From Paramecium tetraurelia (taxonomy: Eukaryota), in the NCBI GenBank assembly GCA_000165425.1, contig CT868017.1:1-64000 (forward strand): a stretch of 64,000 bases of DNA, read 5' to 3'. The notes beneath the pieces are model-generated. The model did not search any database. It saw nothing but the letters and a program-made list of their open reading frames with translations, and was not told the DNA's origin. Position numbers and translations under genes: made by a program. This document shows positions 4,713-55,759 of this stretch, piece by piece. Positions within the stretch are counted from its first letter, which is position 1; each line of letters opens with the position of its first letter.

Positions 4713-7700
4713 TCATGCCATTAATCCCAAAAGACCGAGTGAAATAACTGACAAGATGTAAGCACTGTCGGTGGTAGTTGTTCCATTATCTGTGTTGTTG
4801 TTAGTTCCATTTGAATTGTTTGGATTGACAGATCCTGAAATACAACTTTCACATTTATTAGTAGCGGCATTCCAACTATAAGTGTAAGCTGATTTAGTGT
4901 AGCAAATCTTGGAGTCAGTCATGGTTCCTGGATCAGCAGCAGCGCATTTTCCGCTTTAGAGAACACAAACAGTGGATGAGGCTCCATCGAAGCTTGGAAT
5001 TGGTTGACAATCAGTTCCTGTCGCAAAGGTATCACAAGCGTGATTAGCACAAGTTGTTCCTGTTGAGTTTTTCAGTCCATCTGCATGTTTTGTTGGTTGT
5101 GCAAGCCAATTTGTCTTTGGTAGCATCGGCACATGCGGTGAAGGTCTTGCATGTTCCATTAACTTTGTCAGTTCCAGTAGGAGTGAAAGCACAAACAGTT
5201 GATTTATTGTTTTCTAAACCACCTCCGTTACATGATGTGATGGTCTTATAAGTTGAGCAAGCAGCCTTGGCAATGCAACTAGTTCCATTGGAAACACAAT
5301 TCTTTCCTGCAATAACACCCATACAATTAGCATTTGATGTTCCTCCAGTGATATCTTCACATTGCTTTTATCTGCATGTCTTTGTTCCTGTAGTAGCTCC
5401 AACTGGTAATGCGAAAGTACATTCTCCGTCAGTTCCTGTGAAACATCCAGCTTCAACATAACTTGAGCAAGCAGCCAATGGAATACATTTTGTTCCATCA
5501 GTTGTGCATGATCCTCCAGTTACTGAGATAAGTTTGCATTAGTCGTTTGTACCCTTTTATTCATCTCCACATTCCTTCAATTTGCAAGTATTAGCAGTGG
5601 CGTTCCAATAGCAGATACCATCAGTTCCAAGATTATTGCAAGCTGTTTATGTCTTGTAGGTACCACAAGCTGCTTTAGCAATACAAGCAGTTCCATCAGT
5701 AATACAGGTTGGTCCATATGAGAGACATTCATCATTGGTGGCAGCAACGGCATCAGTACATTATCCGAACTTCTAGCATTTTCCAGTTGGTAACCATCCG
5801 CAAGCTCCATCAGTTCCGACGACGCATGAGGCCTTCAATGTTGTGCTGGCACAGTTGGTAATTGGAATACATGTGTCTCCATTGGTTGTGCATAATGGTG
5901 AGAAACCTTAGCATTCAGTGTGTGTCTTCTTGATAGCATCTTCACATCTGTCATAATCATAGCATTATCCATTAACCCAAAGGCATGGTCCAAAGTTGGA
6001 TTTAATACAGAACAATTTATTAGAGAATTCAGTACATGAGGTTCCAGCAACACAACTTGATCCATTGGTCTTGCAACCAGAGAGGAAAGTGTTACATTCA
6101 TCATCTGTTAAACCGTTCTTGTCGCCGCAAACTCTAGATCTGCATTTATTTGTTGCAGTATCCCAACCACATCTTCCTACTCCGTCCTTGGTTGTTGAGG
6201 CAGCAATACAGATTGATTAAGTCTTGTATGATGGACATGTTGTAATGGTCAAGCAACCAGCTCCAGATGTAGTACAATTATCAGCAAAGCTTTAACATTA
6301 GGCATGAGAAGCGATTGTTGCTGGTTAATCTTCACAAACTTAGGCTCTGCATGTTGAGTTAGATTCAGTCCAAGCACAGAATTTACCATTGACTTTAGAA
6401 TTGGTACATTATGAGTAACTGGTGTTATTATAAGTGGCACAAGTGGTAATAGAAGCTGTACATTAATTGGGCCCCATGTGCATTCTGGTCTCTTAATTTA
6501 CAAGCAGCTTATGATGTCAAATTACTGCAGTTCTTAGTAGCTGTACATCCATAACCTGTTGTTACACAATCCTTATGATATTTCTAGCAATCAGCGTCAG
6601 TTGCAAGTGTATTTGGTGCTTCTGTGCATACTCTCTTAGCGCATGCTCCCTTGATTGTTCCTACTGTGGTAGCTTTGCATGGTCCATCTTTAGCCAAATA
6701 ATTTGGACATGTTTCTTCAGTTCCATTGAAGGTACTGCAATTCTTTCCATAATCAATGCAACCAGTTCCATCGAAGACGCAGAAAGGATCATCTGTAGTC
6801 TTGAATGGTAACATTCCGTCATTACAATCCTTATTGTTTTTACCAGCAATATCACTGCATTTCTTCTTTGCACAAGTAGCTGTAGCTAATGCGGTTGAAG
6901 TATTCCAACAATAATCTTTTCCTGAGCTTCCCAAGAATTTTGCACAAGTAGCTTAATCTCCTTTAAATCCACCACATTACGATGTTGCATCTATACATCC
7001 TGTACCCTTTGTAATACATCCTTTCAGATAAGCAGCACAATCGGTATCTGATGAGGCTGTAGTGTTATCAGCACAAGTTCTTGGTTTACATTTTGCAGTA
7101 GCTGTATTGGTAGCATCACCAGAACAATATTCATAAATTGGATTTTTATTTGCATCTAATCCAATGTATTTTTTGAATTATTCACATTACTATTTAGTTC
7201 CTCTGTATGATGTGCATGGTTCTGAATTTGGAATACATCCTGTTCCACGTGTGACACATCCGCTCAAATAAGAATCACATTCAGAATCAGATGTTGCTGT
7301 AACATTATCATAGCATTTTTTATTTGTACATGCTGCAGGTGTAGTAGAAACAGTAGCTGTTAGTTTACATTTATCTTTTCCTGAACCATCTAATAAGAGA
7401 TTGCAAAATTCTGTGGAACCATTAATTGTATTACATGCAGTAGTTGCAGCAACGCATGCTTAACCGTTTGTCTTGCAAGATTTGAGGTAACTTGAACAAT
7501 CAAAGTCAGTATAGAATGTTTTATCACCGCATGTTCTGTCTTTACATTTTCCGGCTCCAGCGTCCCAAGCACATAAATCTCCTGATGAATTCAAAACTCC
7601 TTCACACCATGCTTATTTGGCTGTATCATCAGCACCTTATACTGCGTAAGCTCCACAAGTAGTTTTAGCGATGCATTTACTTGAATAATAGAGACAATTA

Positions 7701-10700
7701 GCTGCATTATTAACACAATCTGTAGCACTGGCATCATTATCAGTACATACTTAGGCCTAACATTTTTAAGCAGCAGAGGAATCTACAATACATGGATAAT
7801 CATCATTAGATTTAACAGATTTACATTAAGTTGCTTCAGAACCAGCTGCTGGTGTATATGAAGAACAAGCACCAACAACAGCACACTTAGTACCGTTAAC
7901 AAATGTGCATTATTTATCAGATGCGTCAGCTAATGCTTTGCATGCAGCTAATTTATCTGTTGCATCTGTCACATCATATGTACTGCATGCATCTTCCTTC
8001 ACACAGTAAGCACCAACTGCATAAGTACATGCTTCTGAAACTGTTATGTTTGAACAGTATGATCTTTTATCATCTGCTGTAGTTCCAACAGCTGGAACTT
8101 TTGCACAAGCAAGCTCCTTATTTACACAGGTTCCTTTGAAATAAATACATTTTAATTTATTTGATGAAATGTCACAATCAACTTAAGATGTTGGACTTGA
8201 AATATCTTTACAATCAAAATCTCTACATTTTGAGTCTCCGGCTGTAAAAGTACATTTCTTACCAGTGGCATTTATTTTACTATTACAATAAGTTGATCTA
8301 GCTGCATCGCCATCTGGCACAGTATATGAATCACAGTTTCCTGCAGCTACGCAAGCTGTTTAAGTTGTTGCATGGAATTCATCATATGTGCAGAATACAC
8401 TTGCTCCATCTTATGAAAAAACTTAGCAATAAGCTGTTTTTGCACTACCTGCCAAACTTGCAACGTCACTAAAAGGAACTTTAGCTAAGCTAGCACAGTC
8501 TCCTGCACCAGTAACAACACCTTTTGGTGTTCTGCATTTATTAGCTGAGAATACACATCCAATTAAATGTATATCACAATCTCCTTAACTAGCTGCACCT
8601 GTAATGTCTTCACAAGTACCATCTTTACATTTTGCATTATCATCTTTGATACAATATTTCGTTTTATTTTTAATTGATTGTGTAATACAAAATGTATCGG
8701 TTGTTTTAGCTGCTCCATCAAAATTAGATCCAGACCAAGAAGTAGCTATTGCAACAGAAGCACAAGCAGTAACTGTTCCAGCTTGGCAACCTGAGCCATC
8801 AGGTTTTATTTCGCAATATGCATCTCCAGTTTTGAAAATTGACTTACAATAAATAGCCTTTTTTGTATCTGTGTCTAAATCAGCTGGGAAACTTGTTGGA
8901 CAAGCGGCAACTGATGCATAACATTTTCCGGAATAATAATAACATCCTGCTGTTTTGCTGTCGCAATCTTTCTAACTTGTAGCTGAGGTGATAGCAGAGC
9001 AAGCCAATGCTGCACATGTATTACCAGTTGACCATGTACATCCAGTATATGTAGCAGTTCCTGCACCAAAATTACTTATATTATTAACAACTTTCAACGA
9101 TTCGCAAGCAGTCTTTTTATTAGCATCACTTAGTGATGAATCTAAGGTGTAACTTGTACAAGCAGCAACAGTTGATAAGCAACCTGTATTACTCGCTTTT
9201 TAGCATATTCCACTACCATAAGCTAAAACATCATTACAGGCTTAAGCAGTTGTTTAAGAAACTACTTTTTCACAAGTACTCTATTAAGTACAAGTTGCTT
9301 CTCCAGTTTTGAATGAACAAAATACTCCATCTGTATTCACATATTTCTAACATTGTGTTAATTTTTTAGCATCTGTATCAATTCCAGTGGGGAATGCATA
9401 GGTGCAATCTGATTTATTTGGTAAATAACAAAATGTTCCTGCTAATTTGCATGTATCAGTTGATGCAGCACTTGAAACACCCTTTTATAAATAAGCAACG
9501 CATGTTAATGATGTAGTAAATGTGCTCAAGAATTAATCACAAGTTCTAACCGCACACTTTGTTCCTGAGGCCCAACCACAAACATACCCAGTGCTATCTT
9601 TGATAGTTGTACAATAATCAAACTTTTATTAATCAGATGTGGCAGTATCAGGGGTAGAGTAACTAGTACAAACACCTGCATCAATGCATGGAGATCCAGC
9701 CTTTAAGAATCTACAAGTTGATTATATAATCTGTGCAATCAGAAGCTTACTAAGGACTTGCTTTGTCTGAACATACTCTATCTGCACAGGTATCGTATCT
9801 TGTGCACCCAACTTTTGTCCAAGATGGAGATAATCCACCGCTAAAATTGGGACAAGTAGCAACAGTTCCTTATTACGCAGAACACACTCTTGCAGATTTA
9901 GCAGCACAACCTCCTTCAGATTTTGCTATACATCCTGTCAAGAAAGCCTCACAATCTTCGTCTTTTGTGGCTGTTGTATTATCTGTGCAAGCTCTAGTTG
10001 TGCAAGCACCTGATGTTGATGTTCCAAAGCAATATTTTGAACTATTGCTTCCTACAATTGCTGACTCACAGAATGCAGCAACACCTGTGTAACTTCCACA
10101 AGTTGTGTCTCCAGCTTTAGGATCGACACAACCTCCATTGCCATTATAGACACAACCATCTAAAAATGATCCACATGAACCATCAGTCTAGTTTTCTGCC
10201 AATTTGCATGTTTTAACTTTGCAAAAATCACTATCAGTTGCACTTGCACTATTGTAGCATTAATTTGTTGTAAAGTTAGTACTTGATCCGTTCTTATAAG
10301 CAAATAGTTTATTGCAATTTTCCTAAGTTCCTTTCATTGATGAGCATGGAGTATTGTAATCAACACAACCTTTTCCACTACTAATACATCCAGGTAAGAA
10401 AGTAGCACATGTAGCATTATCTGTTGCATCTGTATTATCTGCGCATTTTCTTGACACACAAGGAGTTGTATCTGTTGCTGAGGCGACATTGGTACAGTAT
10501 CCTGGATAACTCAAACATGTAGATTATGTTCCAACAAGTTTGCCACAGTCATATTTGGTTATGCAAGCATCAACTCTATTACTAATACATGTTGATAGTT
10601 CTGCTGCACAATTTGCATCAGTGTTGTAATAGGCTCCGGTTAAATCTGAACAAGCCAAATCTTTGCAAGCATTATTCAACCAACCACATTTTCCTGTTAC

Positions 10701-12314
10701 ATAAATGTATAATGGATTTCCGTTTTCATCATTTTTATCGAATGTTTTAATTCTTGCTTAATTTGCTAAACAAATTGATTTTTTCTTAAAATCAGAGCAT
10801 TATGTATTACTAGTACATATTGGTTACCATGAGCAATTATTTGTACCTTCACAACTTTATTATTTGACAGTTGCATCACATGTAGTTTATGAAACACATC
10901 CAGATCCAGTTGTAACACAATTAGTGAAATAATTAGCACAAAGTGGGTTGGTATTTACATTACTTGCTGCAGAAGCACAATCTCTAGCGACACATTTGGT
11001 TCCACTCTTCCATGTACATTTTCCTTCAGTTCCTACTCTAGATTAGCAACTTGTGGTATCTCCATCATAAGTAGTACAAGATTTCAAGTTAGTCTTTGTA
11101 ACACATCCTTTTCCTGTAGTAACACATCCAACTTAATATTTGGCACATGCATCGTCTGTTGTAGTTGTATCTGGAGCTTCGTCACAAACCTTTGGTGCAC
11201 AAGCAGCTTCAGTAGTTGTACTTGTTCCTTTGCAATATCCATCAGTACCAATATAGACGGCACAAGTGGTGGGCAGTTCCTTTATATGTATTACAAGCTG
11301 ATAAAGCTGACACACATGCTTTTCCGTTTGTTTTACAACTGCTTTAATATTATTTGCAAAGATCATCAGTATTGAATGCACCATTTTCACATTTTCTTGC
11401 TCTACATTTAGAACCTCCAGCATCACCTTCACAAACTCCATCTGATCCAATATATCCAACACATGTAGTGTTATCACCTGAATAGGTTGAACATAATGGT
11501 TTTGTTGTTGCCAAAAACACATCCTTTTTCCTGTAGTGATACATCCTCTTTAATAGGCCTTACAGTCATCATCAGAAGCTAATGATGTTGGTGCATTTGC
11601 ACATTCCTTTGCTTTACAGTTAGTTGTTCCGGTTGCTAATTCACAATTTCCATCTGATCCAATGAATGATTAACAAGCAGCATCATCTCCAGTGTATGTA
11701 GCACATGCAGGTCTTGGAGCATTAACACAACCTTAACCTTTAGTCACACAACCAGCTAACCAGCTTGAACATTTAGCATCAGTATTTAAGGTAACATCAG
11801 CCTCTGAGCAAGCATAATCTCTGCAAGCTCCAGCAGTTGTATCCCATTTACATTTCAAAATTCCTGAGATACTTGGAGTAGACTCACATTATTATTATGT
11901 GTAAGCTTTACACTCTTTAGCCTCAATACATGAATTTCCGTCACTAACACAAAAATAAGATATAGCTTAGCAATCTGTTGTCGTAGTTTTAACATATGCT
12001 GGGCATCCAGTAAAATGAGTACATTTGGATTCAACGTAAGCACATCCCAAAGTTTTAGCACAGTTGGTTTCAGGCTTATCAACAAGTTCGCAATAAGGTT
12101 TGAATGAAGCAACTGGATCAACTGTTGTTTTCTTTTAGCATTTTGCTGCTGTTGTTCCTGAAGCAGCTACCCATTCACAAGCTCCTGTTACTGAAACTTC
12201 TTATTCACAATCATTCTGTGATTTTAGTTATCCACAATCATTACATCTGTTTGTGTATTAAACTTGCTATGCTAAGACCATAGCTAATAAGCAAATGAGG
12301 AATAAATTCTTCAT
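4713..12314 (-). CDS. Variant surface (immobilization) antigen, D-type/51D-like, ~2530 aa, GPI-anchored; reading frame interrupted by several +1 insertions in this sequence
   Basis: Code-6 translation starts MKNLFLICLLAMVLAQQVQYTNRCNDCGQLKSQNDCE (signal peptide), continues with Cys/Thr/Ala-rich periodic repeats and ends in a GPI-signal-like tail TTTTDSAYILSVISLGLLGLMA-TGA. No introns and no near-identical central tandem repeats were seen. Frameshifts at ~11527, ~11515, ~11272, ~9722, ~6470-6492 and ~5070. The D-type assignment rests on size and recollection. Confidence 0.93.
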
Positions 12315-14499
12315 TAAAAGTATTGATATAACTTTTATAATTAAGGCTGATTAAATAGTTTTTTAGATATTAATTTTATTTAAATTTAGAAAGATGTAAT
12401 TTTTTTATTTTTATAATTCTATAGAATTCAATTTTCAAATTAATTCTGATAATTAATATTAATATTTAAATTCTCAAAACAGGTTCTGAACATTAGATGT
12501 GATTGATGTTCATGAAAATAACTTAGATACCCAATCAACCAATTATTATATCAAAATATAAATGCTATGAACGAAATTAGATGAGATTCTGTAGACTAAT
12601 TATTGATAGAACTAACATAATTTAGGGAGAAAGAAAAAATAAGTTAGTAGCATGTGTCTTCCTTGGTTTTCTTTCTTATCACACCAGGATTAGAACAAAA
12701 AATACTAAATTCAAGAGAATTGAGGAAATCAACAATTTTTAATAAATGCCAATTATGAATAAATAGTAAAAGAGCAGAGAAGATTTTATACTAAAATGAA
12801 AGACCTTAGGCTTAAGATAGAAACCTGAAAATTTTATAAGAAGTATTTACAACACTTAAAACAATTTTTTTAATTCTATCTGTTATTTAATTACGTGATG
12901 ATATTACAAAAGCTGCATCTTAATATAGTTTTTGATGTTGGAGTCTATTATATGAATAAACAGTCATTTAAGCATCTAATCTAATATTATTAAGTTAAAT
13001 TATAAATATCCATGCATAATCAAAATTAGAAATAAAATGTTTTTAATATTATTTATAAATATTGTAATTATTGTTAGCCGAAAGATACGAGTACACAATT
13101 ATGCCTGATATCACTTCAACAAGGAAGGATAGCCCAAAAAAATATCAAAAATTAATCATCAAGTTCGAAACATCAATCAAAAATTTTATAGTCCTATAAA
13201 TCATTAGAATTGAGTTTTTAATGAAGAAACTTGATTTCAATTTCCATAATTATTGGTTTAGAGTTAAAAGAATTATAATATGTATAAATTCGTTTTATTT
13301 TTTTCCTTACATAAATAATAATTATTATATTTTTCCTTCTTTAATAGCAATCATACTAATAATTCTTTTGTATTTTCTTCTAACCGTATTATTTTCAGCT
13401 TATACTTATAATAGGAATTTCAGAAAATTCATTTTGTTTCTAATTTGAATTATTTTATTAAGTGTAATTAAATTATATTTAAATTAATTAAATTTGCATG
13501 ACCCATTTACTTTATATAGTGAAATTAAAGAGTCTGAATTAAAGACGATAAGATAGTCTCTAAAAAGGCAGGAAGAGTTAGAATCAATTATTCATTCAAT
13601 TATTGGGAATAAAATCAAATAAAAGACGATTATCCAAAGGTCAGAAAGAAAATTAAAAATGGATTATTTCAATTAGATTTTTGGTTAATATTGCAAGGAG
13701 AGTTTATAAAACTGAATATCTATAATAATATTCGCACATTATCTCTGATACCTCAATTCAGAGTTTAGTTTACAAGATTATAATAATCTGTTTGTTAATA
13801 TATAATCAACAAATCCCCAATAGTTAGCCAACCATCCAAATATGCATATTCTAAACCTTCTTTGATTAGATGAAAATTATCTTCATTTATCATACTAAGT
13901 TAATTACGTTATTGAGTATATCGATTTCTGTGGTTTCATCAACTTTTATTTGACATTTTTATATTGATTACAACTCAGAATTGAACGAGATCATTTATGA
14001 TCTATTATTTGAAATCAATAGAGTTATTTTAAATAATTTCTAATTTTTAACAACCAGATTTTTAGTTTGATCTTTTGTTTTTAGAATTAATTATTTTATG
14101 TTATCATTGAAAATTATTTCAACAATATAGTAAAGCATTCCACCACCCCGAATATAATAATTATAAAAAAATCAATTCAAAGAGATGTATTTTTAGACTA
14201 TTTTTCTTATTTCTAATATAAACTATAGACCCCATTTTAATTTAAATGAGTACCAATTATACAATATTGAATGGCCAATAACATTATCAATATATATGAA
14301 TGATATTAATTCAACTAAATACCGGCTTAATCTAGATGGGACCATATTTTACAATTCTAAAGCAAGTTTAATATTTGCTTAAATTGGTGCTTTATTGGGT
14401 TTCATATTGCTTTAGACATATTAATTCACTTATAGAAACCAACAGAAAAAGACCTTAAGAATCTTAGAAGCTAAATTGTTTTAGCATCAAGATGAATTC

Positions 14500-47356: not shown

Positions 47357-48314
47357 TCATTTCCTAAGATTTTTTAACTATTCCTTCATTTAGTTAGTAC
47401 AATTTAGATACTTGGATTTCGGTATGTGATCTTGAGATATAGTTCTTTCTAATAGAGATTGCTATTGAAATGTTAGTAATTTGACTTAATCTGAATTTGT
47501 TCCTCCCTCAATCTTCACATTGCTGAATCTTTGTTGATCTATTTGTCATAAGCATTTAAAATACTTTCATTTTCTACTTTGTTTTGCAAAGTGAATTGAT
47601 ATTTATCGATGAGTTTCTAAGTGTCTGTTTTGGTTATTGACTTGATGTTTTTATTCAGGTCGTCTTCCTCTTTTTCTTGCTTCCCTTTTGGATCTTGTCC
47701 TTTGTCCTTCTCAAGTGTGATGGATCTCATTCTGTCTGTTTTCTAGTATGTTTCGATTCGCTAATTCAGCAGAGGAGATTGTAATCGTTCTCCCAATATT
47801 TTGGATTGTCTCAATTCCTATTTCAAGAGCACTTCCGATTATCGAAAGTCCTTTGTTTTTATGTTCTGCATTTCTGTTGAGAGCTCTTTAGATGCAGTGG
47901 ATGCTTTTTTAATGAGATTATGTAATAGTTGGATGTCCTCATTTTTTAACTTATTTATCTTGGAATTGACACTTGTTATTTTATCGTCTTAGGACATTAA
48001 TTTGGCATCGAAATTTTCTTTTAATTTGTCAAAGAGCGTATGCAGTAAATTAATGCGTTCAGCCAATTCATCTATTCTCTCATATATAATGTTGATGGAT
48101 CGAATTCGGTCTTCCAAATGATTGATCTTTTTATTCATAAATTGCTCTTGATGTTCTAATCTGTCTTCGATCGCTTTCAATCGGTAATCGTATTGTTCTT
48201 TCAATAGCATCCCAAACTAACGACTTATTTATTTTTTTATTATAAATATTTCATATATTACTCCTCATCGTCTTGCATGTCCTCCCATTCTAACTGATTT
48301 CCATGCTTAAACAT
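47357..48314 (-). CDS. Hypothetical coiled-coil protein
   Basis: Code-6 ORF with short introns; heptad-rich segment LLKEQYDYRLKAIEDRLEHQEQFMNKKINHLEDRI. Confidence 0.7.
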
Positions 48315-48359
48315 CTTCTAATTAAATAGGATTTGCATAATATTATATTTTATTTTTAA

Positions 48360-50144
48360 ATGGCTTCAGAGGAAGAATAATTGGACACCATTGAGAAGTT
48401 TCAGAAAGCAGTAAAGTTGACGGCCATTTTAAGATAGAAACCAACCTCTGACGAAGAAATGCAACGCGCACAAAAGGCTTTGATCAAGCCTGTATCCATA
48501 AGAAATGCTGAAGATTTCGAGGCTATTGAGAAAGTCATGATAAGAGTTAAGTTCTTCACCAAAGTCAAGTTGAAATACGGACTACTGGTCTTTAAGGAAG
48601 TCTGCAAGCATTTGTATTACAAAAGAGCACAGCCCGGTCACATCATGATCAAGGTGAATAATGAAGGAAAAGCTTTCTATGTAATTTTGAGAGGCAGTGT
48701 CGGAATCAACATATTTTTGCCAAAAGTCTCCCAAAAATAAGCAGAATCCAAATCTACTTTCGGTGTCAATGAAATAGAATTTGAGGATGAACCTTTTGAG
48801 TACCAAGAAGTCAATGTTCTGTCCATCGGTGATTCTTTTGGAGAAGTAGCCCTCTTGGATCCCAATTCCAAAACGACAGCAACTGTAATCACCAAGGACA
48901 TTTGCGAATTCGCCTGTTTGGACAAAGAATAGTACATCAATATTTTGGGAGTTTTGAATCAGGCAGAAATGAATGAAAAAATGTCCTTTGTCAGAGGAAT
49001 CCATTTCTTGCATGGATGGTTCGATAATGACTTGAAGACTTTGAGTTTCCACTTCGAATTGATGTATTATGAGAGGAATGATGTCATTTATCGAGAAAAT
49101 TCAGCCAATGATGGATACATCTACTTCCTAAAGAAGGGAGAGATCTCCTTATTGAAATTATTTTAGAGATAATAAATTTACGTTTGCAACTTGTGTGTAG
49201 GAGAAATATTTGGAGAGGAAATGTACTTAGGTATTAATAATAGATAGCATACTGCTATTTGCAATGTTTAAGATACATAGGTCTACAGATTAGCCAAAAG
49301 TGATTTGGATAAGAGAATGTGGCAGATAGAAAATAGGAATCTCTTCAAAGAAAGTGTTGAAATCAGATGGGAATGGAGAAATCAAAGGTTTGACAATTTA
49401 AAACTCTTTGAAGCAAAGGTTGAATAGGAGGAAAATCTTCAAAAATATTTAAAACCAAAAACTGAATCCATTCTTGAAAGACCTCAAATTTAATAGTCTC
49501 ATTCCACCAAGATCTCCTCCTATACTTGTGTAAAACCATTCAATTTCATGGAACCATTGACAGCAGCAGATGAGTTGTTCGAAAACAATGGAATTTAATC
49601 CAAAATCTTTCAGAACAAAATTAAAGTCAGACAATACAATTCATCCAAACAATCCCTAAGGAATTACACCTATATGAAATAATAGAGTTAGATTGGACTC
49701 ATTAAACAGAATCAATAACGAAAAGAAAACCTCAAAAAAACTAAGCGAGTTAATTCATAACAGTTTAAATCATTTTTATAACAAAAATTTCAATCAGAAG
49801 AGCACAATATTTAAAATTAACTTCCTTTCAATTTTATAAATCAAGAGACTCAAAATGAACCAACTGAATAACAACAATAATAGGTATAATAAAAATTGAC
49901 TTCTTTTGGATAATCACAGCAGAATAGCTTATATGAAGATGTAATTTAGTTTGCAGTTTCTTAGAAATAAAAAACACTTATAAAATTACCTTAAGCCAAT
50001 TCAACAAAATATTCTAGTAAAGAAAACAGCTTTAAAAAGCTTTCTCAAGATCAAATTCATCATCGTAAATCTCCGTCTAATTTATCATATGAATTCTCGG
50101 ATGCTAAAGGTAGCTTCTAATATAAAAGGCTTTTTAAGTATTGA
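48360..50144 (+). CDS. Tandem cyclic-nucleotide-binding domain protein
   Basis: GKAFYVILRGSVGI..GDSFGEVALLDPNSKTTATV; second domain YIYFLKKGEI..GEIFGEE; in-frame 48360-50144. Confidence 0.88.
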
Positions 50145-51097: not shown

Positions 51098-51793
51098 TCA
51101 TTTCTTCTCTATTTTTTACGGAGTATCATCTTCAATCATCAAGTCATTCAAAAGGGTTTTCAAGAATGATGTAGTGTATTTCGCCTATCCCAATAAACGC
51201 TGTTAAACTTAAGGAGGAGCTCTTGTAATTATATCAAATAACTGGATTACAAAATACTTTTTCCTTAGTTGCTTATTATCACAGATCATTTGTAAGATTA
51301 AATTTTAAGGAATTTTAATCTTACACACACATAATATGGATACTTGATCGATATCAATATTGCTCTATATTTATTAATATAAACAATCCTTATGATATGA
51401 ATGTAAACAGGGTAAAGAAATGCAATCCTGATTAATTTATCCGGTGCAGTTTTTACAGATCTAAACTGTAGTTTTCATTATTGTTTAATTGAAGGTTTAT
51501 TGATAAATACTTTTATTGTTGAATTAAATCTACTCTAGATTATTTACCTATTAGTTTGAGTAATTTGTTTGATTGAGTGATGAAGGTTATGCTTATTAGA
51601 ATATTTATTCTTATTATTATTAAATAGGTTCTTTTTCATGATTTTGTTATTGACTTACTATTTTTATCTTTGGATTTGAAGTGGATATAAATATCTGGTT
51701 TTTTTCTTACTCTTACATGGTAATTTAGGGATTTTTAGCATAATGACAAGTGTTCAAATATACTTCTCCATCAGTCATTGTCCCTTCTTTCAT
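51098..51793 (-). CDS. RING-H2-like zinc-finger protein (231 aa)
   Basis: Intronless ORF with CKNCTGQINQDCISLPCLHSYHKDCL...ILCVC. Confidence 0.72.
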
Positions 51794-51850
51794 AATTAAT
51801 AATTATATTATATATTATATTCTATTATTTTATAGGATAGGAAATATTTA

Positions 51851-53501
51851 TCAGAGGGTTATGATATTGGCAGTTTTATACTTAGAGGATAGTTGTTCAA
51901 CTTGGCATTCTTGAACTTCATAGAGAGGACATGAAAAATGATTAGTAGATATTTTGGTTAAGAAGCAAGTCTCACAAAATAGGAAATGTTAACAGGGGAA
52001 CTAAATAACATTCCGTTCTGCTTGTTTGCATTGAATGCACAACAATTATTTAATCATTTAAATCTATGTTGAAATAAAAGATTACCCTTTGCTTAGTAGC
52101 AGAAGCCTTGGCCAGTTTTTCATTCGTTTAGTTTTGTTGTACCGCGATTTGGTTCTTCAAACTCTCACATTAATCCACTATTTAATCTTTTTTATTATGT
52201 AATTATTCTTTAGTTTTCGTTAGTTTTCTTATTTTTTGTAGATAGTCTATGCTTTGTTCTTCCCTCCTCATAGAGGACTTGTAAGTTTCAAGTTATCTCT
52301 AATTATTATAGAACCCAGCCAAGTTTGATTCTGCTTGCTCTAATTTTTTGATATTTATAGCATTATATTGTTCTTTGACACTTTCAAAACCTAAGTCCAT
52401 TTCCCTTAATTTTATTTGCAATTAGACTAGCAAAGTTTCATTTTTGTCTTATGCCTATATCATTGTTTAATTGATATCTTTTGCTTACTCTATCTCTTTA
52501 AAACTATTTTGCAATTTCTCTTTCAGTAACACACTTAATTCTTCTTACTTTTAAAGTTACATTTACAATTGTTAAATGATTGGATCTTACTTTTAAGTAG
52601 ACATTTAGATTGAGTCCTAAGTATTTTGATTAGTCGATTAAGTAACAACAATATTGAAAATACACCAGGGTTCGTCAAAACAAAAGTCTTTAACCAAATT
52701 CTATGATTCTGGTATCAAAAGCCAGAATTATTTTTGGCCTTTATTTTAAATGAATTGTAAATAGATTTCTGGATTTTTATCGAGTTTTGATTCACAGAAT
52801 TCTAAGACTCTGGAATCTTCAAGCAATTTTTTGGTTATTTAGAAATTGTGGGTAATTTAGATTTGTTTGAGTTTATCCTATTTAATTTTGAAGGAGTAAT
52901 CTCGATTGACTTATTCTAATTTATAATTATTATGTAGTTTAAAATAGGCTGCTTCCATTTTGGCGTGTCCGCCTAGTAAATTAAAGGAGATCCTATCAAT
53001 TATTGATATGTTTGCGGCTTTTATTTGATTGAATTCAATTTTGGGAATACTCAATCGGGGATCTGCCGTGATCACTACATCTTAATCAAAAATATTATAA
53101 GCATCTTCCTTCATCATAATCATTTACTTTTAGGCATTGGGACGGCTTTTGTATTGCTTGATCAATTCTTAAATCTTCGACGATCCCGTTCTTCCCAATG
53201 GAATTGAGGACTTTGCTGATAATGATTTAAATTACATTGGAATCTTTAAAAATTGGGGTGCGATTCTCCTTTTTACAGATTGAGATGTGATGATCCCTTT
53301 CCGTTTACAATTCGAACACTTGTAGGCAAAAGGCGCAAAAATAATATTCACTATTCTATTTAATGAACATTGATACTTTCTCGTTTCACCATAGGTGGTA
53401 ATTCGCTCGTTTATGATGTGGCATTTTTGCAGATGGTTGAGGTAATCCCAAACTGATGAAAATTTTATTAAATGTTCCTTTTATGGGCATGTGAATTTCA
53501 T
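51851..53501 (-). CDS. Tandem CHHC/C2HC zinc fingers + coiled coil + C-terminal RING-HC protein (~525 aa)
   Basis: FTCPQKEHLIKFSSVWDYLNHLQKC and YFCAFCLQVFELQTERDHHISIC at the N-terminus; LCIQCKQAERNVIQFPCQHFLFCETC..SCPLYEVQEC at the C-terminus; removing inferred introns of 26, 25 and 22 nt gives a continuous frame. Confidence 0.75.
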
Positions 53502-53523
53502 TTACAGTACAATAATTAAATAA

Positions 53524-55759
53524 ATGATCAGATAAAGGTCAGTTAGTCAGAATTCAAAAACCTTAGAGTATGAATAGGTGAGAGACATCAAAACATCTTA
53601 GTTCCATAGAAAGATAGTGGTAATGGGATTTCCTATAATTGTAGCCTTTGCATCAAGAAAATAGCATGCTTAAAGATAGACTGCACAAAATGAAATTCCA
53701 AGTGGAGGACAACTTGCAATTGGTGATAGATGAGTTGGACAAGGATCTGCAATTGAAGGCCAAACTCATAGATTTCCAATAGTTGTTCGGATTGATCAAG
53801 GCCCAAATAAGCAAGGATCATGAGAAGATCGATTCATTACAAGAACAAATAGAAAGACTGCAATTTAACTTGAATCAGAGTGCTCAACAGAGAGAAGACG
53901 AGAGTTAAATGTACCAGCAATCCCAAGCCAACTTAAATGAATAGTTATAAAAGGAAAAGTAACAATTTCGTAGTGAGAGACTCTCGTTGGACGAGCAAAT
54001 CAAAGTGCTTGCCTATTAGAACTACGAGAAAGAGTAGGAATTGGAGTAGATGAAGAAATAACTGCAATGGGAGTTAGATTAGAACCAGGAACTCATTTAA
54101 AAAGTAGAGAGGACAAAGAAGTTTGATTAAGAACTAAAGGACAAATAGGTATAGTATGAGACTACTATCTCTAAACTGAATTCATAGATTGAGACAGACA
54201 ATCAGGTGTTCAAGAATGAGTTGGAATTACAGTAGTAGAAGTTGGAATCCAAATACAGACAGATGATATAGGAAAACAAGTCATTGACATAGTAGGTGTC
54301 AGAGATGAAATAAAATATTCATCAATTGAAATAATAGAAGGAATCCATGGAAAGAACACTCGAATCTAATAATCAGAAAATGAAAGACATGAAAGCTGGA
54401 GTTATCTCAGATAAATAACAGATGTCCAAAAACGAGAAAACTATTGAGGAACTATAAACAGAATTGACATTCTTTAAAAATAAGGTATCCTTAGATGAGA
54501 AGAGAGAGATCAAATTAAAGTAGTAATTGACCCAATAAGAGGACTAAATTCAAGAATTATTGTAAGTCAAGAACCAGTATAATAATTTAAGAAAAGTATT
54601 GTAATAAGAGCATCTAGTTGAAATTGAAAAAATCAACATTCAACATAATTAATAACTGAAAAGTTTGAATGAATAAATGTAAATATAAAGGGTTAAATAT
54701 GAGAAATTACTTGGTAAACAGGTGGATATCAAAGAAATTGCTCAGTATTAACAAAAGGATTTCTCTTAATAATATGAGGATCCAGTTCATGTTTAGTATG
54801 TTGAAAATTTAGAATTAAAGATCGAAAATCAGACTTAACAAATTACACAATTGGAATAAAATATCAAATCTAATAATGAAGAGTACATTAAAGAAAAATA
54901 ACAGATGTACAATTAATTCGCTCAAGAAAAACAAGTTCTTATAACTTAACAGAAGCAGGATTTATAAAGACAATTGGCAGAATTTGAAGAGTTTAAAAAT
55001 AAATTATAAAGTGATTACAATTATAGGACCTAACTGTTAAGTCAACAATTCTCCTTTTAATTAGATTAATAGAAATAGGAATAGAAGCAATTGCAATAGA
55101 TCATAGATTAATCTAAATTAAGTGGAGATGAGAAGACTAAATTGTTAGAGATAGCCTCGGAGGAGATTATGAATTTGAGAAAGAAATACGATCACGATAT
55201 CTATGAGGAAAGGAATACTTAAAGACAAATGAAACATGAATTCGATAATGCTATCTCATAGAATAATTCAGATCATCAGAAACAAATTGATATTCTAAAA
55301 AGAGAAATTGAGAATCTAAAACTCTCATTATCTGACTTCCAAGAGAGAGATCAGGTCAACAAGTAGAAGATATCTGACTTATTGAATGAGCAAAAATAAG
55401 ATCGTTCGAGTATCAATCAATTAGAGTTCTAATTGAATAAAAGATAGATTGAGATCTAGAAACTAAATGAAACCATCAGAGGACTCAATGCTCGTATATC
55501 CACGTTGTTGTTGGAAGTAGAAAATACAAAAAAGACCTATAATATATTTGCTCCTTCTTCTTCAAACTCATCCCACTATAATTTGAAAAAGCTAGAATTA
55601 GAAATACCAGGAGATCTGAGTCAATAACAAAGACATTCCTCTTCTGAATTGAAATTTAAACCTGAACTTTTGGTGCAGGACTTTGGAAAAAAGTCTAATA
55701 GGAATAGATCCTAATAAGGTTCTAGATAATACCAAATAAGGCAGATGCCCCCAGTATGA
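53524..55759 (+). CDS. Long coiled-coil protein, function unknown
   Basis: E/Q/K-rich heptads over ~2 kb in code 6; one 25-nt intron near the 5' end; stop TGA at 55757-55759. Confidence 0.78.

What the first reader, a model, noticed from the sequence alone, without database searches (positions are those of the whole stretch)
51851..53501. GTSF1/Asterix-like tandem zinc fingers fused to a RING E3 domain: candidate small-RNA-pathway ubiquitin ligase
Seen: finger 1 is C-P-x3-H-x12-H-x3-C (CPQKEH..YLNHLQKC) and finger 2 ends ERDHHISIC, followed by a coiled coil and a C-terminal RING-HC. Established: GTSF1-family PIWI cofactors carry two U11-48K-type CHHC fingers (human, from memory: CPYDKNH..YHLIKC and ..EISHHISSC) but no RING, and Paramecium uses Piwi/scanRNAs with a Gtsf1 for genome rearrangement. 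Inference: this fusion could couple RNA or Piwi recognition to ubiquitination. Spacing differs from canonical CHHC and finger 2 is C2HC, so homology is unproven.
Basis: partly seen in the sequence, partly recalled or inferred. Interest (0 to 1): 0.7.

Follow-up and report, generated by a model that had tools for sequence, protein, structure and literature searches.

The report
Paramecium Rf-family RING-finger protein gene

Summary
Window 53501-51851 (minus strand, ciliate code) is a four-exon, 525-aa gene: two N-terminal zinc fingers, an alpha/beta middle domain, a long coiled coil and a C-terminal RING.

The GTSF1 reading is not supported. Finger 1 is CPx3Hx12Hx3C, against the published CHHC motif CPX4HX9HX3C. 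Finger 2 is Cx2Cx12Hx3C, and it is a canonical C2H2 (Cx2Cx12Hx4H) in 4 of 6 Rf1-type paralogues. None of 11 homologues, nor the window pieces, hit Pfam zf-U11-48K at E<=10. All weak PDB and Atlas neighbours that are zinc fingers are C2H2-type.

The family is Paramecium-only and already published. It matches the "Rf" RING-HC cofactors of PRC2-Ezl1 (Rf1a/b, Rf2, Rf4=Rnf1), described as N-terminal zinc finger(s), coiled coil and C-terminal RING. The P. tetraurelia paralogue (49% identical) fits Rf4/Rnf1 by mass (62.5 kDa) and scaffold size. Rf4 bridges Ptiwi09 to PRC2 and to Gtsf1. By elimination and scaffold size the window gene is most likely RF3 (PTET.51.1.G1280028). RF3 is named only in that paper's Methods, and it evolves about twice as fast as Rf4.

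So the small-RNA-pathway idea is plausible through paralogy, but it is not new. The public 2006 gene model misses two introns and destroys finger 2.

The parts
53377..53501 (-). Exon 1 (M1 to R41 plus 2 nt of codon 42); ATG at 53501-53499
   Evidence: Identical to the start of public model P0024 and 41/41 alignable with P0001.
53418..53489 (-). Finger 1: C5-P-x3-H10-x12-H23-x3-C27-H28. It has a CHHC(H) ligand set with C2H2 spacing (F at +4 and Y at +10 after the second ligand).
   Evidence: C5, P6, H10, F14, H23, C27 and H28 are invariant in 15 of 15 rows. The pattern occurs once in the window's six-frame translation and 0 times in shuffles.
53351..53376 (-). Intron 1, 26 nt, GTA..TAG
   Evidence: Its removal gives ..GETRN|EYYFCAFC.., as in all homologue models. 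The public model P0024 reads through it.
53236..53350 (-). Exon 2 (codon 42 third base to N80)
53275..53337 (-). Finger 2: C47-x2-C50-x12-H63-x3-C67 (C2HC with classical C2H2 spacing)
   Evidence: C47, C50 and H63 are conserved in all 14 correct models. The 4th ligand is Cys in 9 of 9 Rf3/Rf4-type rows, His at +5 in 4 of 6 Rf1-type rows, and missing in 2 of 6. Sub-threshold zf-C2H2 hits occur in 2 of 6 Rf1-type proteins.
53211..53235 (-). Intron 2, 25 nt, GTA..AAG (weak acceptor). An upstream CAG at 53216 would give a 20-nt intron, a frameshift and a 97-aa product.
   Evidence: It is the only GT..AG choice that restores the long frame. It gives KDSN|SSIPLGR, matching KDSK|SAIPLGR of P0001. No junction reads were listed.
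52086..53210 (-). Exon 3 (S81 to R455): linker, middle domain, coiled coil
52635..52985 (-). Middle alpha/beta domain (about residues 156-272): four short helices, then a four-stranded sheet
   Evidence: AlphaFold2 models, (core blocks pLDDT 63-87). No convincing PDB match: Foldseek best E 0.56, VIA best Z 4.6. Weak DUF7634 hit at E 0.006-0.009, below cut-off.
52086..52583 (-). Coiled-coil region (about residues 290-455)
   Evidence: The model shows two long helices, 290-350 and 356-460. The sequence is heptad-rich and Q/K/E-rich.
52064..52085 (-). Intron 3, 22 nt, GTA..TAG
   Evidence: Also spliced in the public model P0024.
51851..52063 (-). Exon 4 (I456 to L525 plus TGA stop at 51853-51851)
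51905..52039 (-). RING-HC: C464-x2-C467-x11-C479-x-H481-x3-C485-x2-C488-x11-C500-P-L-x5-C508
   Evidence: Pfam zf-C3HC4_3 at E 4.4e-7, 30.1 bits against a cut-off of 27, on exon 4 alone. It matches profile positions 2-41 of 49, so the last Cys is not aligned. All 8 ligands are invariant in 15 of 15 rows. The best Foldseek rows are Bre1/RNF20/IDOL/RNF8 RINGs, E >= 0.09.

Best explanation
The locus encodes a 525-aa (62 kDa) member of the Paramecium-specific 'Rf' family of RING-HC proteins. It is most likely RF3 (PTET.51.1.G1280028), the diverged old paralogue (48.9% identity) of Rf4/Rnf1.

Shown here:
- the four-exon gene model;
- minus-strand transcription;
- the domain order: finger 1, finger 2, alpha/beta domain, coiled coil, RING;
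- that the family consists of three Paramecium clades (Rf1-like, Rf3-like, Rf4-like);
- that both fingers have classical C2H2 spacing with swapped ligands (C-H-H-C/H and C-C-H-C) and share one helix register.

Inferred mechanism, by analogy with Rf4:
- The protein is a modular adaptor.
- The finger pair is the most conserved part between Rf3 and Rf4 (70%, against 32-53% for linker, middle domain and coiled coil). It is the docking module for a shared partner (protein or RNA).
- The diverged linker and middle domain give paralogue-specific contacts.
- The coiled coil dimerises the protein, as in Bre1, RNF8 or IDOL.
- The C-terminal RING either recruits an E2 or serves as a structural pairing module.

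The fingers are not GTSF1/U11-48K CHHC domains. I put the odds that this particular paralogue acts in the sexual-cycle scnRNA/PRC2 pathway at about 0.4. The rest is an unrelated or redundant role.
For: Gene model and transcription:
- The spliced CDS is 525 aa and 92.2/80.4/73.0% identical to the P. octaurelia, primaurelia and sonneborni models.
- Stranded oligo-dT RNA reads (175, 110 and 43 reads in 3 runs) cover 51834-53508 with the first mate on the + strand. The neighbouring + strand gene shows the opposite orientation.

Family range:
- A profile search of 1.84 billion representatives gave 16 hits at E<=1e-3. Only 2 were full-length clusters, both Paramecium. The rest were fragments or RING-only hits.
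- The tree has three clades with 100/100 support.

Published Rf proteins (passages read):
- Gene ids, including RF3 = PTET.51.1.G1280028, come.

Identification with named Rf proteins:
- Rnf1 = Rf4 = PTET.51.1.P0570234, 62.5 kDa, in Table S1 of PMC10073204.
- The P. tetraurelia paralogue P0005 computes to 62.50 kDa. The other family members compute to 61.96, 62.77 and 62.70 kDa.
- P0028 and P0029 are 83.9% identical (428/510). The paper gives 84.62% for Rf1a/Rf1b.
- Contig lengths of the four P. tetraurelia members fall in the order of the published scaffold numbers: 454,313 (57), 354,111 (84), 289,312 (117), 268,562 (128).

Fingers:
- The motif comparison uses the review's CPX4HX9HX3C.
- No PF05253 hit anywhere.
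- Finger 2 is canonical C2H2 in 4 of 6 Rf1-type rows, with zf-C2H2 at E 0.23 and 0.61.
- PDB profile hits are C2H2 fingers only. Atlas neighbours are C2H2 clan.
- hhalign of finger 1 against finger 2 puts F-x8-H-x3-C-x3-N in register (P 3.6e-4, probability 37%).
Against: - The equation window gene = RF3 is inferred. It rests on elimination within the family, scaffold-size order and a crude gene count (our gene comes about 24th or later in the window, with obvious undercounting). No paper text or readable supplement gave a sequence or coordinate for G1280028.
- The mass match is only moderately discriminating, because all family members are 62-63 kDa.
- Rf3 is not among the interactors named in the main texts of the Ezl1, Ptiwi09 or Gtsf1 pull-downs; these name Rf1a/b, Rf2 and Rf4. 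No RF3 knock-down result appears in the text I could read.
- Rf3-type proteins evolve about twice as fast as Rf4-type: tetraurelia vs primaurelia 80.4% against 90.9%.
- Developmental expression could not be obtained.
- The C2H2 classification rests on spacing and sub-threshold hits. The review says CHHC fingers structurally resemble their 'C2H2 cousins', so a very distant kinship cannot be excluded.
- The N-terminal AlphaFold2 model was too poor to use (pLDDT 38-58).
- For the related Tetrahymena EZL1 complex, no E3 activity was detected under standard assay conditions. The RING may therefore not be catalytic.
Confidence: 0.8

Rival explanations
1. The two fingers are homologues of the tandem CHHC (zf-U11-48K) fingers of GTSF1/Asterix. 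They are fused to a RING, so that RNA or Piwi recognition of the GTSF1 kind is coupled directly to ubiquitination.
For: - Finger 1 has the CHHC ligand order, the C-P start and the H-x3-C end.
- Finger 2 ends ..HHISIC in the window.
- The paralogue Rf4 sits in the same complexes as Gtsf1 and Ptiwi09. Ptiwi09 is ubiquitylated in a Gtsf1-dependent way by an unidentified E3.
- CHHC and C2H2 folds are described as similar.
Against: - The spacing is CPx3Hx12Hx3C (CPx6Hx12Hx3C in Rf1-type proteins), against CPX4HX9HX3C.
- Finger 2 is C2HC or C2H2, whereas the CHHC ligands of GTSF1 are said to be absolutely conserved in both fingers.
- The first H of 'HH' is not conserved: DYH, DSH and DMH in the homologues.
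- 0 of 11 homologues and 0 of 3 window pieces hit PF05253 at E<=10.
- No GTSF1 or U11-48K chain appeared among the PDB profile hits at E<=10.
- The earlier PSI-BLAST 'GTSF1 homologues' of P. tetraurelia lie on scaffolds 17, 86 and 16, not 128 or 57.
Confidence: 0.06
2. The fingers are ubiquitin-binding (UBZ-type) or TRAF-type C2HC fingers. The protein would then be a ubiquitin-reading RING E3 unrelated to the small-RNA pathway.
For: - Finger 2 has the C2HC ligand set Cx2Cx12Hx3C.
- The overall content (RING plus zinc fingers plus coiled coil) recalls TRAF-like proteins. TRAF6 RING rows appear among the weak Foldseek hits at E 0.36-0.44.
Against: - No UBZ or zf-TRAF Pfam family appeared at E<=10 in any of 11 homologues.
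- In the Rf1-type paralogues the same finger is a plain C2H2.
- The acidic residue before the last Cys that I recall as typical of UBZ4 fingers is absent (H-I-S-I-C, H-Q-H-L-C). That UBZ4 feature is recalled, not tested.
- The domain order is the reverse of TRAFs.
Confidence: 0.06
3. The gene is a decaying or functionally redundant duplicate of RF4. It is still transcribed but under relaxed constraint and without a role of its own.
For: - It evolves about twice as fast as Rf4-type orthologues.
- Intron 2 has a weak AAG acceptor with a competing frame-breaking CAG 5 nt upstream.
- RNA depth is low.
- Rf3 is not named among the interactors, and no RF3 phenotype is reported in the readable text.
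Against: - The frame is intact over 525 codons.
- All 8 RING ligands and all finger ligands are kept in four species.
- 92% identity to P. octaurelia without gaps. Fingers and RING are still 80-90% conserved out to P. sonneborni, against 63-67% for the coiled coil and linker. That is domain-wise purifying selection.
Confidence: 0.12
4. Splicing at the CAG acceptor (20-nt intron 2) makes a 97-aa protein consisting only of the two fingers and a short basic tail. This would be a GTSF1-sized product, either as the main form or as a regulated isoform.
For: The CAG at 53216 is a legitimate acceptor 5 nt upstream of the AAG. The resulting frame ends at a TGA after 17 codons.
Against: - The downstream 445 codons are conserved at protein level in 14 homologues and are transcribed contiguously.
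- All species' gene models use the frame-preserving junction.
- Such a transcript would carry a premature stop and be an NMD target. NMD surveillance of Paramecium splicing is stated in the passages read.
Confidence: 0.05

Closest known systems
Paramecium tetraurelia Rf4 / Rnf1 (PTET.51.1.G0570234), cofactor of PRC2-Ezl1
   Same: - Same length class (527 vs 525 aa).
- Same order of two fingers, middle domain, coiled coil and C-terminal RING with the CPLx5C ending.
- 48.9% identity overall, 70% in the fingers and 60% in the RING.
- Both clades are present in several aurelia species.
   Different: - Rf4 is experimentally tied to Ptiwi09, PRC2 and Gtsf1 and to scnRNA selection. Nothing of the kind is reported in readable text for the window gene.
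- The linker (32%) and coiled coil (39%) have diverged.
- The window clade evolves about twice as fast.
- That P0005 is Rf4 is itself inferred from mass and scaffold size.
Paramecium Rf1a/Rf1b (PTET.51.1.G1170141 / G0840161)
   Same: - Homologous over the full length (E about 1e-49, 31-35% identity).
- Same architecture.
- Finger 1 core ..WDYLxHLQKCH.. and RING core FPCQHFLFC are identical.
   Different: - Finger 1 has a 3-residue longer first knuckle (CPx6H).
- Finger 2 is a canonical C2H2 (4 of 6 rows) or lacks its 4th ligand (2 of 6 rows).
- The paper reports later developmental expression for RF1a/b.
- The assignment of P0028/P0029 to Rf1b/Rf1a is inferred.
GTSF1 / Asterix and the zf-U11-48K CHHC finger (PF05253)
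   Same: - The C-P...H...H-x3-C ligand order of finger 1.
- A tandem pair of small fingers at the N-terminus.
- The functional neighbourhood of the paralogue Rf4 (Piwi, scnRNA selection).
   Different: - Inter-ligand spacing of x12, not x9.
- Finger 2 is not CHHC.
- No HMM or PDB-sequence match.
- A 62-kDa protein with coiled coil and RING, rather than a protein under 20 kDa with a disordered Piwi-binding tail.
- Paramecium has its own bona fide Gtsf1, PTET.51.1.G0490019.
Classical C2H2 (TFIIIA-type, and zf-met/JAZ dsRNA-binding) zinc fingers
   Same: - Both fingers have the spacing (F/Y)-x-C-x2-4-[C/H]-x3-F-x5-hydrophobic-x2-H-x3-4-[C/H].
- Weak PDB and Pfam hits are to this class.
- Atlas neighbours carry zf-met, zf-C2H2_jaz and zf-C2H2.
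   Different: - The second ligand of finger 1 is His, and the last ligand of both fingers is Cys (with an adjacent invariant His in finger 1).
- No Pfam C2H2 model reaches its cut-off.
Coiled-coil dimeric RING E3s (Bre1/RNF20-RNF40, RNF8, IDOL)
   Same: A long helix runs into a C-terminal RING-HC. These are the top Foldseek rows for the full-length model.
   Different: - The matches are not significant (E >= 0.09, TM-score normalised to the target 0.44-0.61).
- There is no sequence homology outside the RING.
- The last zinc knuckle is C-x7-C.
- Dimerisation was not tested.
Tetrahymena EZL1-complex RNF1 and RNF2
   Same: They are RING-finger subunits of a ciliate Polycomb complex needed for RNA-guided DNA elimination.
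   Different: - No full-length non-Paramecium homologue was found at E<=1e-3 in 1.84 billion representatives, so orthology is unproven.
- No E3 activity was detected for that complex.

Membership tests
GTSF1 / zf-U11-48K CHHC finger (PF05253) | Motif CPX4HX9HX3C in each finger (as given in the review PMC9539491) | tested here: not met
   - Finger 1 is CPx3Hx12Hx3C (Rf3/Rf4 types) or CPx6Hx12Hx3C (Rf1 type).
- Finger 2 is Cx2Cx12Hx3C.
- The review motif occurs 0 times in the window's six-frame translation.
GTSF1 / zf-U11-48K CHHC finger (PF05253) | Match to the Pfam profile PF05253 | tested here: not met
   0 of 11 homologues and 0 of 3 window pieces matched at E<=10. HMMER filters can drop matches above about E 0.1, so only a clear match is excluded.
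GTSF1 / zf-U11-48K CHHC finger (PF05253) | Sequence similarity to solved CHHC domains (mouse GTSF1, U11-48K) | tested here: inconclusive
   A profile of the N-terminal 80 residues against 177,635 PDB sequences at E<=10 gave 10 rows. None was GTSF1 or U11-48K, and 8 were C2H2 fingers. I did not verify that those entries are in the copy. No fold comparison was possible, because the N-terminal model had pLDDT 38-58.
GTSF1 / zf-U11-48K CHHC finger (PF05253) | Small protein (<20 kDa) with a disordered C-terminal Piwi-binding tail | tested here: not met
   525 aa, 62.0 kDa, with a folded middle domain, coiled coil and RING.
GTSF1 / zf-U11-48K CHHC finger (PF05253) | Binding to a PIWI protein or structured RNA | not testable with these tools
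   Needs co-IP or in vitro binding.
Paramecium Rf family (RING-HC cofactors of PRC2-Ezl1) | Architecture: one or two N-terminal zinc fingers, coiled coil, C-terminal RING-HC | tested here: met
   compared with the description read.
Paramecium Rf family (RING-HC cofactors of PRC2-Ezl1) | Sequence homology to a named Rf protein | tested here: met
   - 48.9% identity to P0005, which matches Rnf1/Rf4 by mass (62.50 vs 62.5 kDa) and scaffold size.
- 35% identity to P0028, one of a pair that is 83.9% identical, like Rf1a/b at 84.62%.
- The link from protein id to Rf name is inferred, not read from a sequence record.
Paramecium Rf family (RING-HC cofactors of PRC2-Ezl1) | Co-purification with Ezl1, Ptiwi09 or Gtsf1 | not testable with these tools
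   The main texts name Rf1a/b, Rf2 and Rf4 only. The mass-spectrometry supplements of PMC11724296 and PMC12529928 could not be read.
Paramecium Rf family (RING-HC cofactors of PRC2-Ezl1) | Expression induced during autogamy | not tested
   Three oligo-dT runs of unknown stage show low coverage. No expression table with this gene could be read.
RING-HC (C3HC4) E3 ligase domain | Match to a RING Pfam profile at or above the curated cut-off | tested here: met
   zf-C3HC4_3 scored 30.1 bits against a cut-off of 27 on exon 4 alone. It matched at E 2.4e-6 to 2.6e-5 in 5 of 5 and 2.3e-6 to 5.3e-6 in 6 of 6 homologues. Some whole-protein scores were just below 27.
RING-HC (C3HC4) E3 ligase domain | Eight zinc ligands with canonical spacing, ending C-x2-C | tested here: inconclusive
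   Seven ligands are canonical. The eighth Cys lies 7 residues after the seventh (C-P-L-x5-C) and is invariant in 15 of 15 rows. The Pfam alignment stops at profile position 41 of 49.
RING-HC (C3HC4) E3 ligase domain | E2-dependent ubiquitin ligase activity | not testable with these tools
   No activity was detected for the Tetrahymena EZL1 complex under standard conditions.
Classical C2H2-type zinc finger | Spacing C-x2-4-C-x12-H-x3-5-H with hydrophobic residues at +4 and +10 after the second ligand | tested here: met
   Both fingers keep the x12 and x3-4 spacing and F at +4. Finger 2 is fully canonical in 4 of 6 Rf1-type rows. The ligand identities differ: His second in finger 1, Cys last in both.
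Classical C2H2-type zinc finger | Match to a Pfam C2H2 profile at the curated cut-off | tested here: not met
   The best hits were PF00096 at E 0.23 and 0.61 (12.5 and 11.1 bits, against 25.2) in 2 of 6 Rf1-type proteins. There were none in the Rf3/Rf4 types.

The most novel reading that the evidence does not exclude
The Rf3/Rf4 type of RING protein is the missing E3 of scanRNA selection. On this reading the window gene, alone or as a coiled-coil heterodimer with Rf4 (in the manner of RNF20-RNF40), uses its conserved N-terminal finger pair to recognise target-engaged Ptiwi09-Gtsf1. That pair would be a CHHC-ligand variant of a C2H2 finger that converges on, or is very distantly related to, the GTSF1 finger. 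The RING would then ubiquitylate Ptiwi09, so that genome-matching scnRNAs are destroyed. This would be a ciliate counterpart of ZSWIM8-mediated target-directed miRNA decay.
Probability: 0.1. Interest if true: 0.7.

Novelty: already known. Interest (0 to 1): 0.25.

Why it matters
Two groups have shown that Ptiwi09 and its genome-matching scanRNAs are removed by a Gtsf1-dependent, ubiquitin/proteasome-linked process whose E3 ligase is unknown. They have also shown that Rf4 physically links Ptiwi09, PRC2 and Gtsf1. A RING protein of the same family is therefore a reasonable candidate to test.

The family and its architecture are already published, and the gene itself appears to have been named (RF3) and targeted by RNAi. 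This report adds four things:
- A corrected gene model. The 2006 public model reads through two introns and loses finger 2.
- A clear negative on GTSF1 homology.
- The observation that the finger pair is the best conserved module of the family.
- The atypical last RING knuckle.

Tried and rejected
- **Whole-genome search.** No genome is held for this window.
- **RNA evidence.** No listed holder is on record as RNA in the run index. Laying three raw RNA runs and one contig set gave coverage but no joints. Splice junctions, including the AAG/CAG choice, therefore stay unverified. Depth dips in the three bins that contain introns, but it also dips at 52504-52704 and 53040-53106, where I propose no intron. 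The dips are therefore not evidence.
- **Short relatives.** A search for short proteins sharing the finger module (region 1-80, lengths 'shorter') found no candidate.
- **Full-length AlphaFold2 model.** Mean pLDDT was 57 and the N-terminus 38-58, so it was unusable for a fold comparison of the fingers. Foldseek on it gave only non-significant RING rows.
- **Middle-domain model.** Mean pLDDT 63.4. Foldseek gave nothing at E<=0.001 (best 0.56). VIA-align over 48,161 chains gave a best Z of 4.6 and none at 5 or above. No fold assignment is made, which does not show that the fold is new.
- **Complex prediction.** A job to test homodimerisation of the coiled-coil plus RING part never ran, because the queue was full. 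Dimerisation remains an inference.
- **Earlier findings of this scan.** None by place, sequence or words.
- **Expression and proteomics tables.**
  - The supplements of PMC3091696, PMC10711438 and PMC5485702, as held, contain neither gene id.
  - The supplements of PMC11724296 and PMC12529928 were too large to read.
  - bioRxiv supplements are closed.
  - The published Dev Cell version of the Rf paper is not held.
  - RF3 results may sit in any of these.
- **Text searches.** The GenBank locus tag returned 0 papers. The bare number 1280028 returned only unrelated papers among the 10 listed.
- **Gene count.** A crude ORF-based count put the gene about 24th with clear undercounting. It is compatible with 'gene 28 of the scaffold' only if the window starts at the scaffold start, which I could not check.
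Full report
**1. What is in the sequence**

The window is AT-rich (GC 0.22-0.38) and reads as open frames only under the ciliate code. On the minus strand, a 509-aa frame runs from the ATG at 53501. A second frame carries ..EYYFCAFCLQVFELQTERDHHISIC.., and a third carries a RING and ends at the TGA at 51851-51853.

Three short GTA-initiated introns connect these frames:
- 53376-53351, 26 nt, ending TAG
- 53235-53211, 25 nt, ending AAG
- 52085-52064, 22 nt, ending TAG

The spliced CDS is 1578 nt = 525 aa. It aligns without gaps to the 525-aa P. octaurelia protein P0001 at 92.2% identity. Identity is 80.4% to the P. primaurelia model and 73.0% to the P. sonneborni model. The intron sizes fit the 25-nt average stated for P. 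tetraurelia (abstract listed; passages read). The same paper calls GTA the stronger donor and TAG the stronger acceptor. Intron 2 therefore has a strong donor and a weak acceptor.

The public P. tetraurelia protein GSPATT00032176001 (P0024, 542 aa) is letter for letter the window's frame-0 read-through of introns 1 and 2, joined to the RING exon. That model lacks finger 2.

**2. Transcription**

Three raw oligo-dT RNA-seq runs carrying the same species label put 175, 110 and 43 reads on 51700-53700. Reads over 51834-53508 have the first mate on the + strand in X19 and X20. Under the usual library chemistry this means a minus-strand RNA. From 53509 onward the orientation flips, which fits the divergent + strand neighbour. 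X21 shows a few opposite-strand reads at 53174-53508.

No joints were listed (58-nt reads, low depth). Depth dips occur in the intron-bearing bins but also elsewhere. The junctions therefore rest on homology, not on reads.

**3. Are the fingers GTSF1-like?**

The review of Asterix/GTSF1 (passages read) defines CHHC fingers by CPX4HX9HX3C. It says the CHHC ligands are absolutely conserved in both GTSF1 fingers, and that the fold resembles the 'C2H2 cousins'.

- **Spacing.** Finger 1 here is C-P-x3-H-x12-H-x3-C, followed by an invariant His. In the Rf1-type paralogues it is C-P-x6-H-x12-H-x3-C. Finger 2 is C-x2-C-x12-H-x3-C. In 4 of 6 Rf1-type proteins finger 2 is a textbook C-x2-C-x12-H-x4-H, and in the other 2 the fourth ligand is missing. 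Both fingers keep the classical positions: F four residues, and an aromatic or hydrophobic residue ten residues, after the second ligand.
- **Shared register.** hhalign of the two finger profiles against each other aligns F-x8-H-x3-C-x3-N in register (P 3.6e-4, probability 37%).
- **Pfam.** No PF05253 match at E<=10 in 3 window pieces, 5 Rf3/Rf4-type proteins or 6 Rf1-type proteins. The only finger-family signals were zf-MYST (a C2HC finger) at E 0.96, and zf-C2H2 at E 0.23 and 0.61 in 2 of 6 Rf1-type proteins.
- **PDB sequences.** A profile of the N-terminal 80 residues gave 10 rows at E 0.13-7. Eight were classical C2H2 fingers: Miz-1/ZBTB17, CTCF, MP42, Tramtrack, ZFAT, a Zif chimera and two BCL11A entries. 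Two were an unrelated decarboxylase. None was GTSF1 or U11-48K.
- **Protein Atlas.** For residues 1-80 and for residues 1-45 (finger 1 alone), every listed neighbour that carries a family carries C2H2-clan families: zf-met, zf-C2H2_jaz, zf-C2H2. These are leads only.
- **'HH' similarity.** The resemblance of '..HHISIC' to GTSF1 is not conserved. The orthologues have DYH, DSH and DMH at that position.

I conclude that the fingers are C2H2-spaced fingers with unusual ligands. A very remote kinship with CHHC fingers cannot be excluded, because the two classes are said to share a fold and my N-terminal model was too poor to compare (pLDDT 38-58).

**4. The rest of the protein**

- **RING.** Exon 4 matches zf-C3HC4_3 at E 4.4e-7 (30.1 bits; cut-off 27). 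The eight ligands are invariant in 15 of 15 aligned proteins, but the last pair is C-P-L-x5-C rather than C-x2-C.
- **Coiled coil.** The full-length model shows helices 290-350 and 356-460 running into the RING. Its best Foldseek rows are helix-plus-RING dimeric E3s (Bre1, RNF20/40, IDOL, RNF8), none of them significant (E >= 0.09).
- **Middle domain.** Residues 160-271 model as four short helices and a four-stranded sheet (pLDDT 63-87). No convincing match was found in the PDB.

**5. What family is it?**

A profile of five homologues, searched against 1.84 billion representatives, found 16 proteins at E<=1e-3. Only two were full-length clusters, both from Paramecium. The others were gene fragments or RING-only matches. 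Further look-ups gave 15 proteins in three clades, each with 100/100 support:
- the window's clade (tetraurelia, octaurelia, primaurelia, sonneborni);
- a second clade, 49% identical, that includes P. tetraurelia P0005;
- a third clade, 31-35% identical, with two P. tetraurelia members, P0028 and P0029.

The literature supplied the identification.
- The preprint of Miro-Pina et al. (10.1101/2021.08.12.456067; passages read) describes four Ezl1-associated RING-HC proteins: Rf1a, Rf1b, Rf2 and Rf4. [quoted passage not shown] It states that Rf1a and Rf1b are 84.62% identical. It gives the gene ids RF4 = G0570234, RF1b = G0840161, RF1a = G1170141, RF2 = G1190062 and RF3 = G1280028. RF3 appears only in the Methods, as two RNAi fragments.
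- Wang et al. [quoted passage not shown]

These data fit the proteins found here.
- P0005 computes to 62.50 kDa. The other three P. tetraurelia members compute to 61.96, 62.77 and 62.70 kDa.
- P0028 and P0029 are 83.9% identical over 510 aligned positions.
- The contigs of the four proteins measure 454,313, 354,111, 289,312 and 268,562 bp. That is the order of scaffold numbers 57, 84, 117 and 128.

The window gene, on the 268,562-bp contig, is therefore most likely RF3. I put this at about 0.8. It is an inference, because no sequence or coordinate for G1280028 was readable.

**6. What is known about the family's function**

- Rf4 is required for scnRNA selection and for the Ptiwi09-Gtsf1 interaction in the maternal macronucleus. 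The authors' working model ends in Ptiwi09 ubiquitylation and proteasomal degradation (PMC12529928; passages).
- Charmant et al. (PMC11724296; passages) show Gtsf1- and Ema1-dependent ubiquitylation of Ptiwi09 and explicitly leave the E3 open.
- In Tetrahymena, no E3 activity was detected for the EZL1 complex with its RNF1/RNF2 under standard conditions (PMC8191774).
- Rf3 is not named among the interactors in any main text I read. The relevant supplements could not be opened.
- The three earlier PSI-BLAST 'GTSF1 homologues' of P. tetraurelia lie on scaffolds 17, 86 and 16, so they are not this gene or RF4 (PMC11602119).

**7. Evolutionary comparison**

Rf3-type orthologues diverge about twice as fast as Rf4-type ones:

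| Comparison from P. tetraurelia | Rf3-type | Rf4-type |
|---|---|---|
| vs octaurelia | 92.2% | 97.3% |
| vs primaurelia | 80.4% | 90.9% |
| vs sonneborni | 73.0% | 83.1% |

Between Rf3 and Rf4, the fingers are the best conserved part (70%), followed by the RING (60%), the middle domain (53%), the coiled coil (39%) and the linker (32%). Within the Rf3 clade, the fingers and RING remain 80-90% conserved. This argues for a functional protein whose finger pair and RING are the constrained modules, with paralogue-specific linker and coiled-coil surfaces.

**8. Verdict**

The GTSF1 homology is not supported. The 'small-RNA-pathway RING protein' idea is plausible only through paralogy to Rf4, and that family is already in print.

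The mechanism I commit to is a coiled-coil, probably dimeric, adaptor. Its C2H2-like finger pair docks a partner shared with Rf4, and its RING recruits an E2 or acts structurally. The architecture is shown; the mechanism is inferred.

Noticed in passing
window 53211-53376 (introns 1 and 2): The public P. tetraurelia protein GSPATT00032176001 (P0024, 542 aa) reads straight through introns 1 and 2 in frame 0. This replaces finger 2 with unrelated residues. The orthologue models in four other species are spliced.
   Followed up: yes
window 53216 vs 53211: Intron 2 has two possible acceptors 5 nt apart. The CAG (20-nt intron) shifts the frame to a stop after 17 codons and gives a 97-aa two-finger product. 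The AAG (25-nt intron) keeps the 525-aa frame. No junction reads were available to decide usage.
   Followed up: partly
window 51098-51793, minus strand: Only 57 bp downstream of the stop lies another ORF (231 aa). It is Q-rich and has a weak, sub-threshold RING-like motif (zf-C3HC4, zf-RING_2 at E about 0.005). This would make two RING-type genes in tandem.
   Followed up: partly
window 53666-55759, plus strand: A divergently transcribed 697-aa, very Q/E/K-rich coiled-coil ORF with no Pfam match. It starts 165 bp from the start codon of the gene studied. RNA reads of the opposite orientation begin at 53509.
   Followed up: partly
window 48303-50144, plus strand: A 613-aa ORF with two cyclic-nucleotide-binding domains (PF00027, E 8.4e-21).
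   Followed up: partly
window about 5035-12434, minus strand: A block of about 7.4 kb of same-strand open frames. It coincides with the highest GC in the window (0.34-0.38, against 0.22-0.30 around it) and negative GC skew. It is probably one very large gene.
   Followed up: no
P0028 and P0030 (Rf1-type homologues), finger 2: In 2 of 6 Rf1-type proteins the fourth zinc ligand of finger 2 is absent (..LLDHTDSEE.., ..LLDHKDSEQ..). Finger 2 may be dispensable or degenerate in that clade, or these gene models are imperfect.
   Followed up: no
window 52504-52704 and 53040-53106: RNA-seq depth drops to 1.5-2.6 (X19) in bins where no intron is proposed. This shows that the depth dips at the intron bins are not specific evidence.
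   Followed up: no
P0008 (144 aa, from the representative library): A fragment of unknown origin with a coiled coil and a RING ending C-P-L-x5-C, like this family (E 1.8e-16). It may be a member from another Paramecium or a related ciliate.
   Followed up: no
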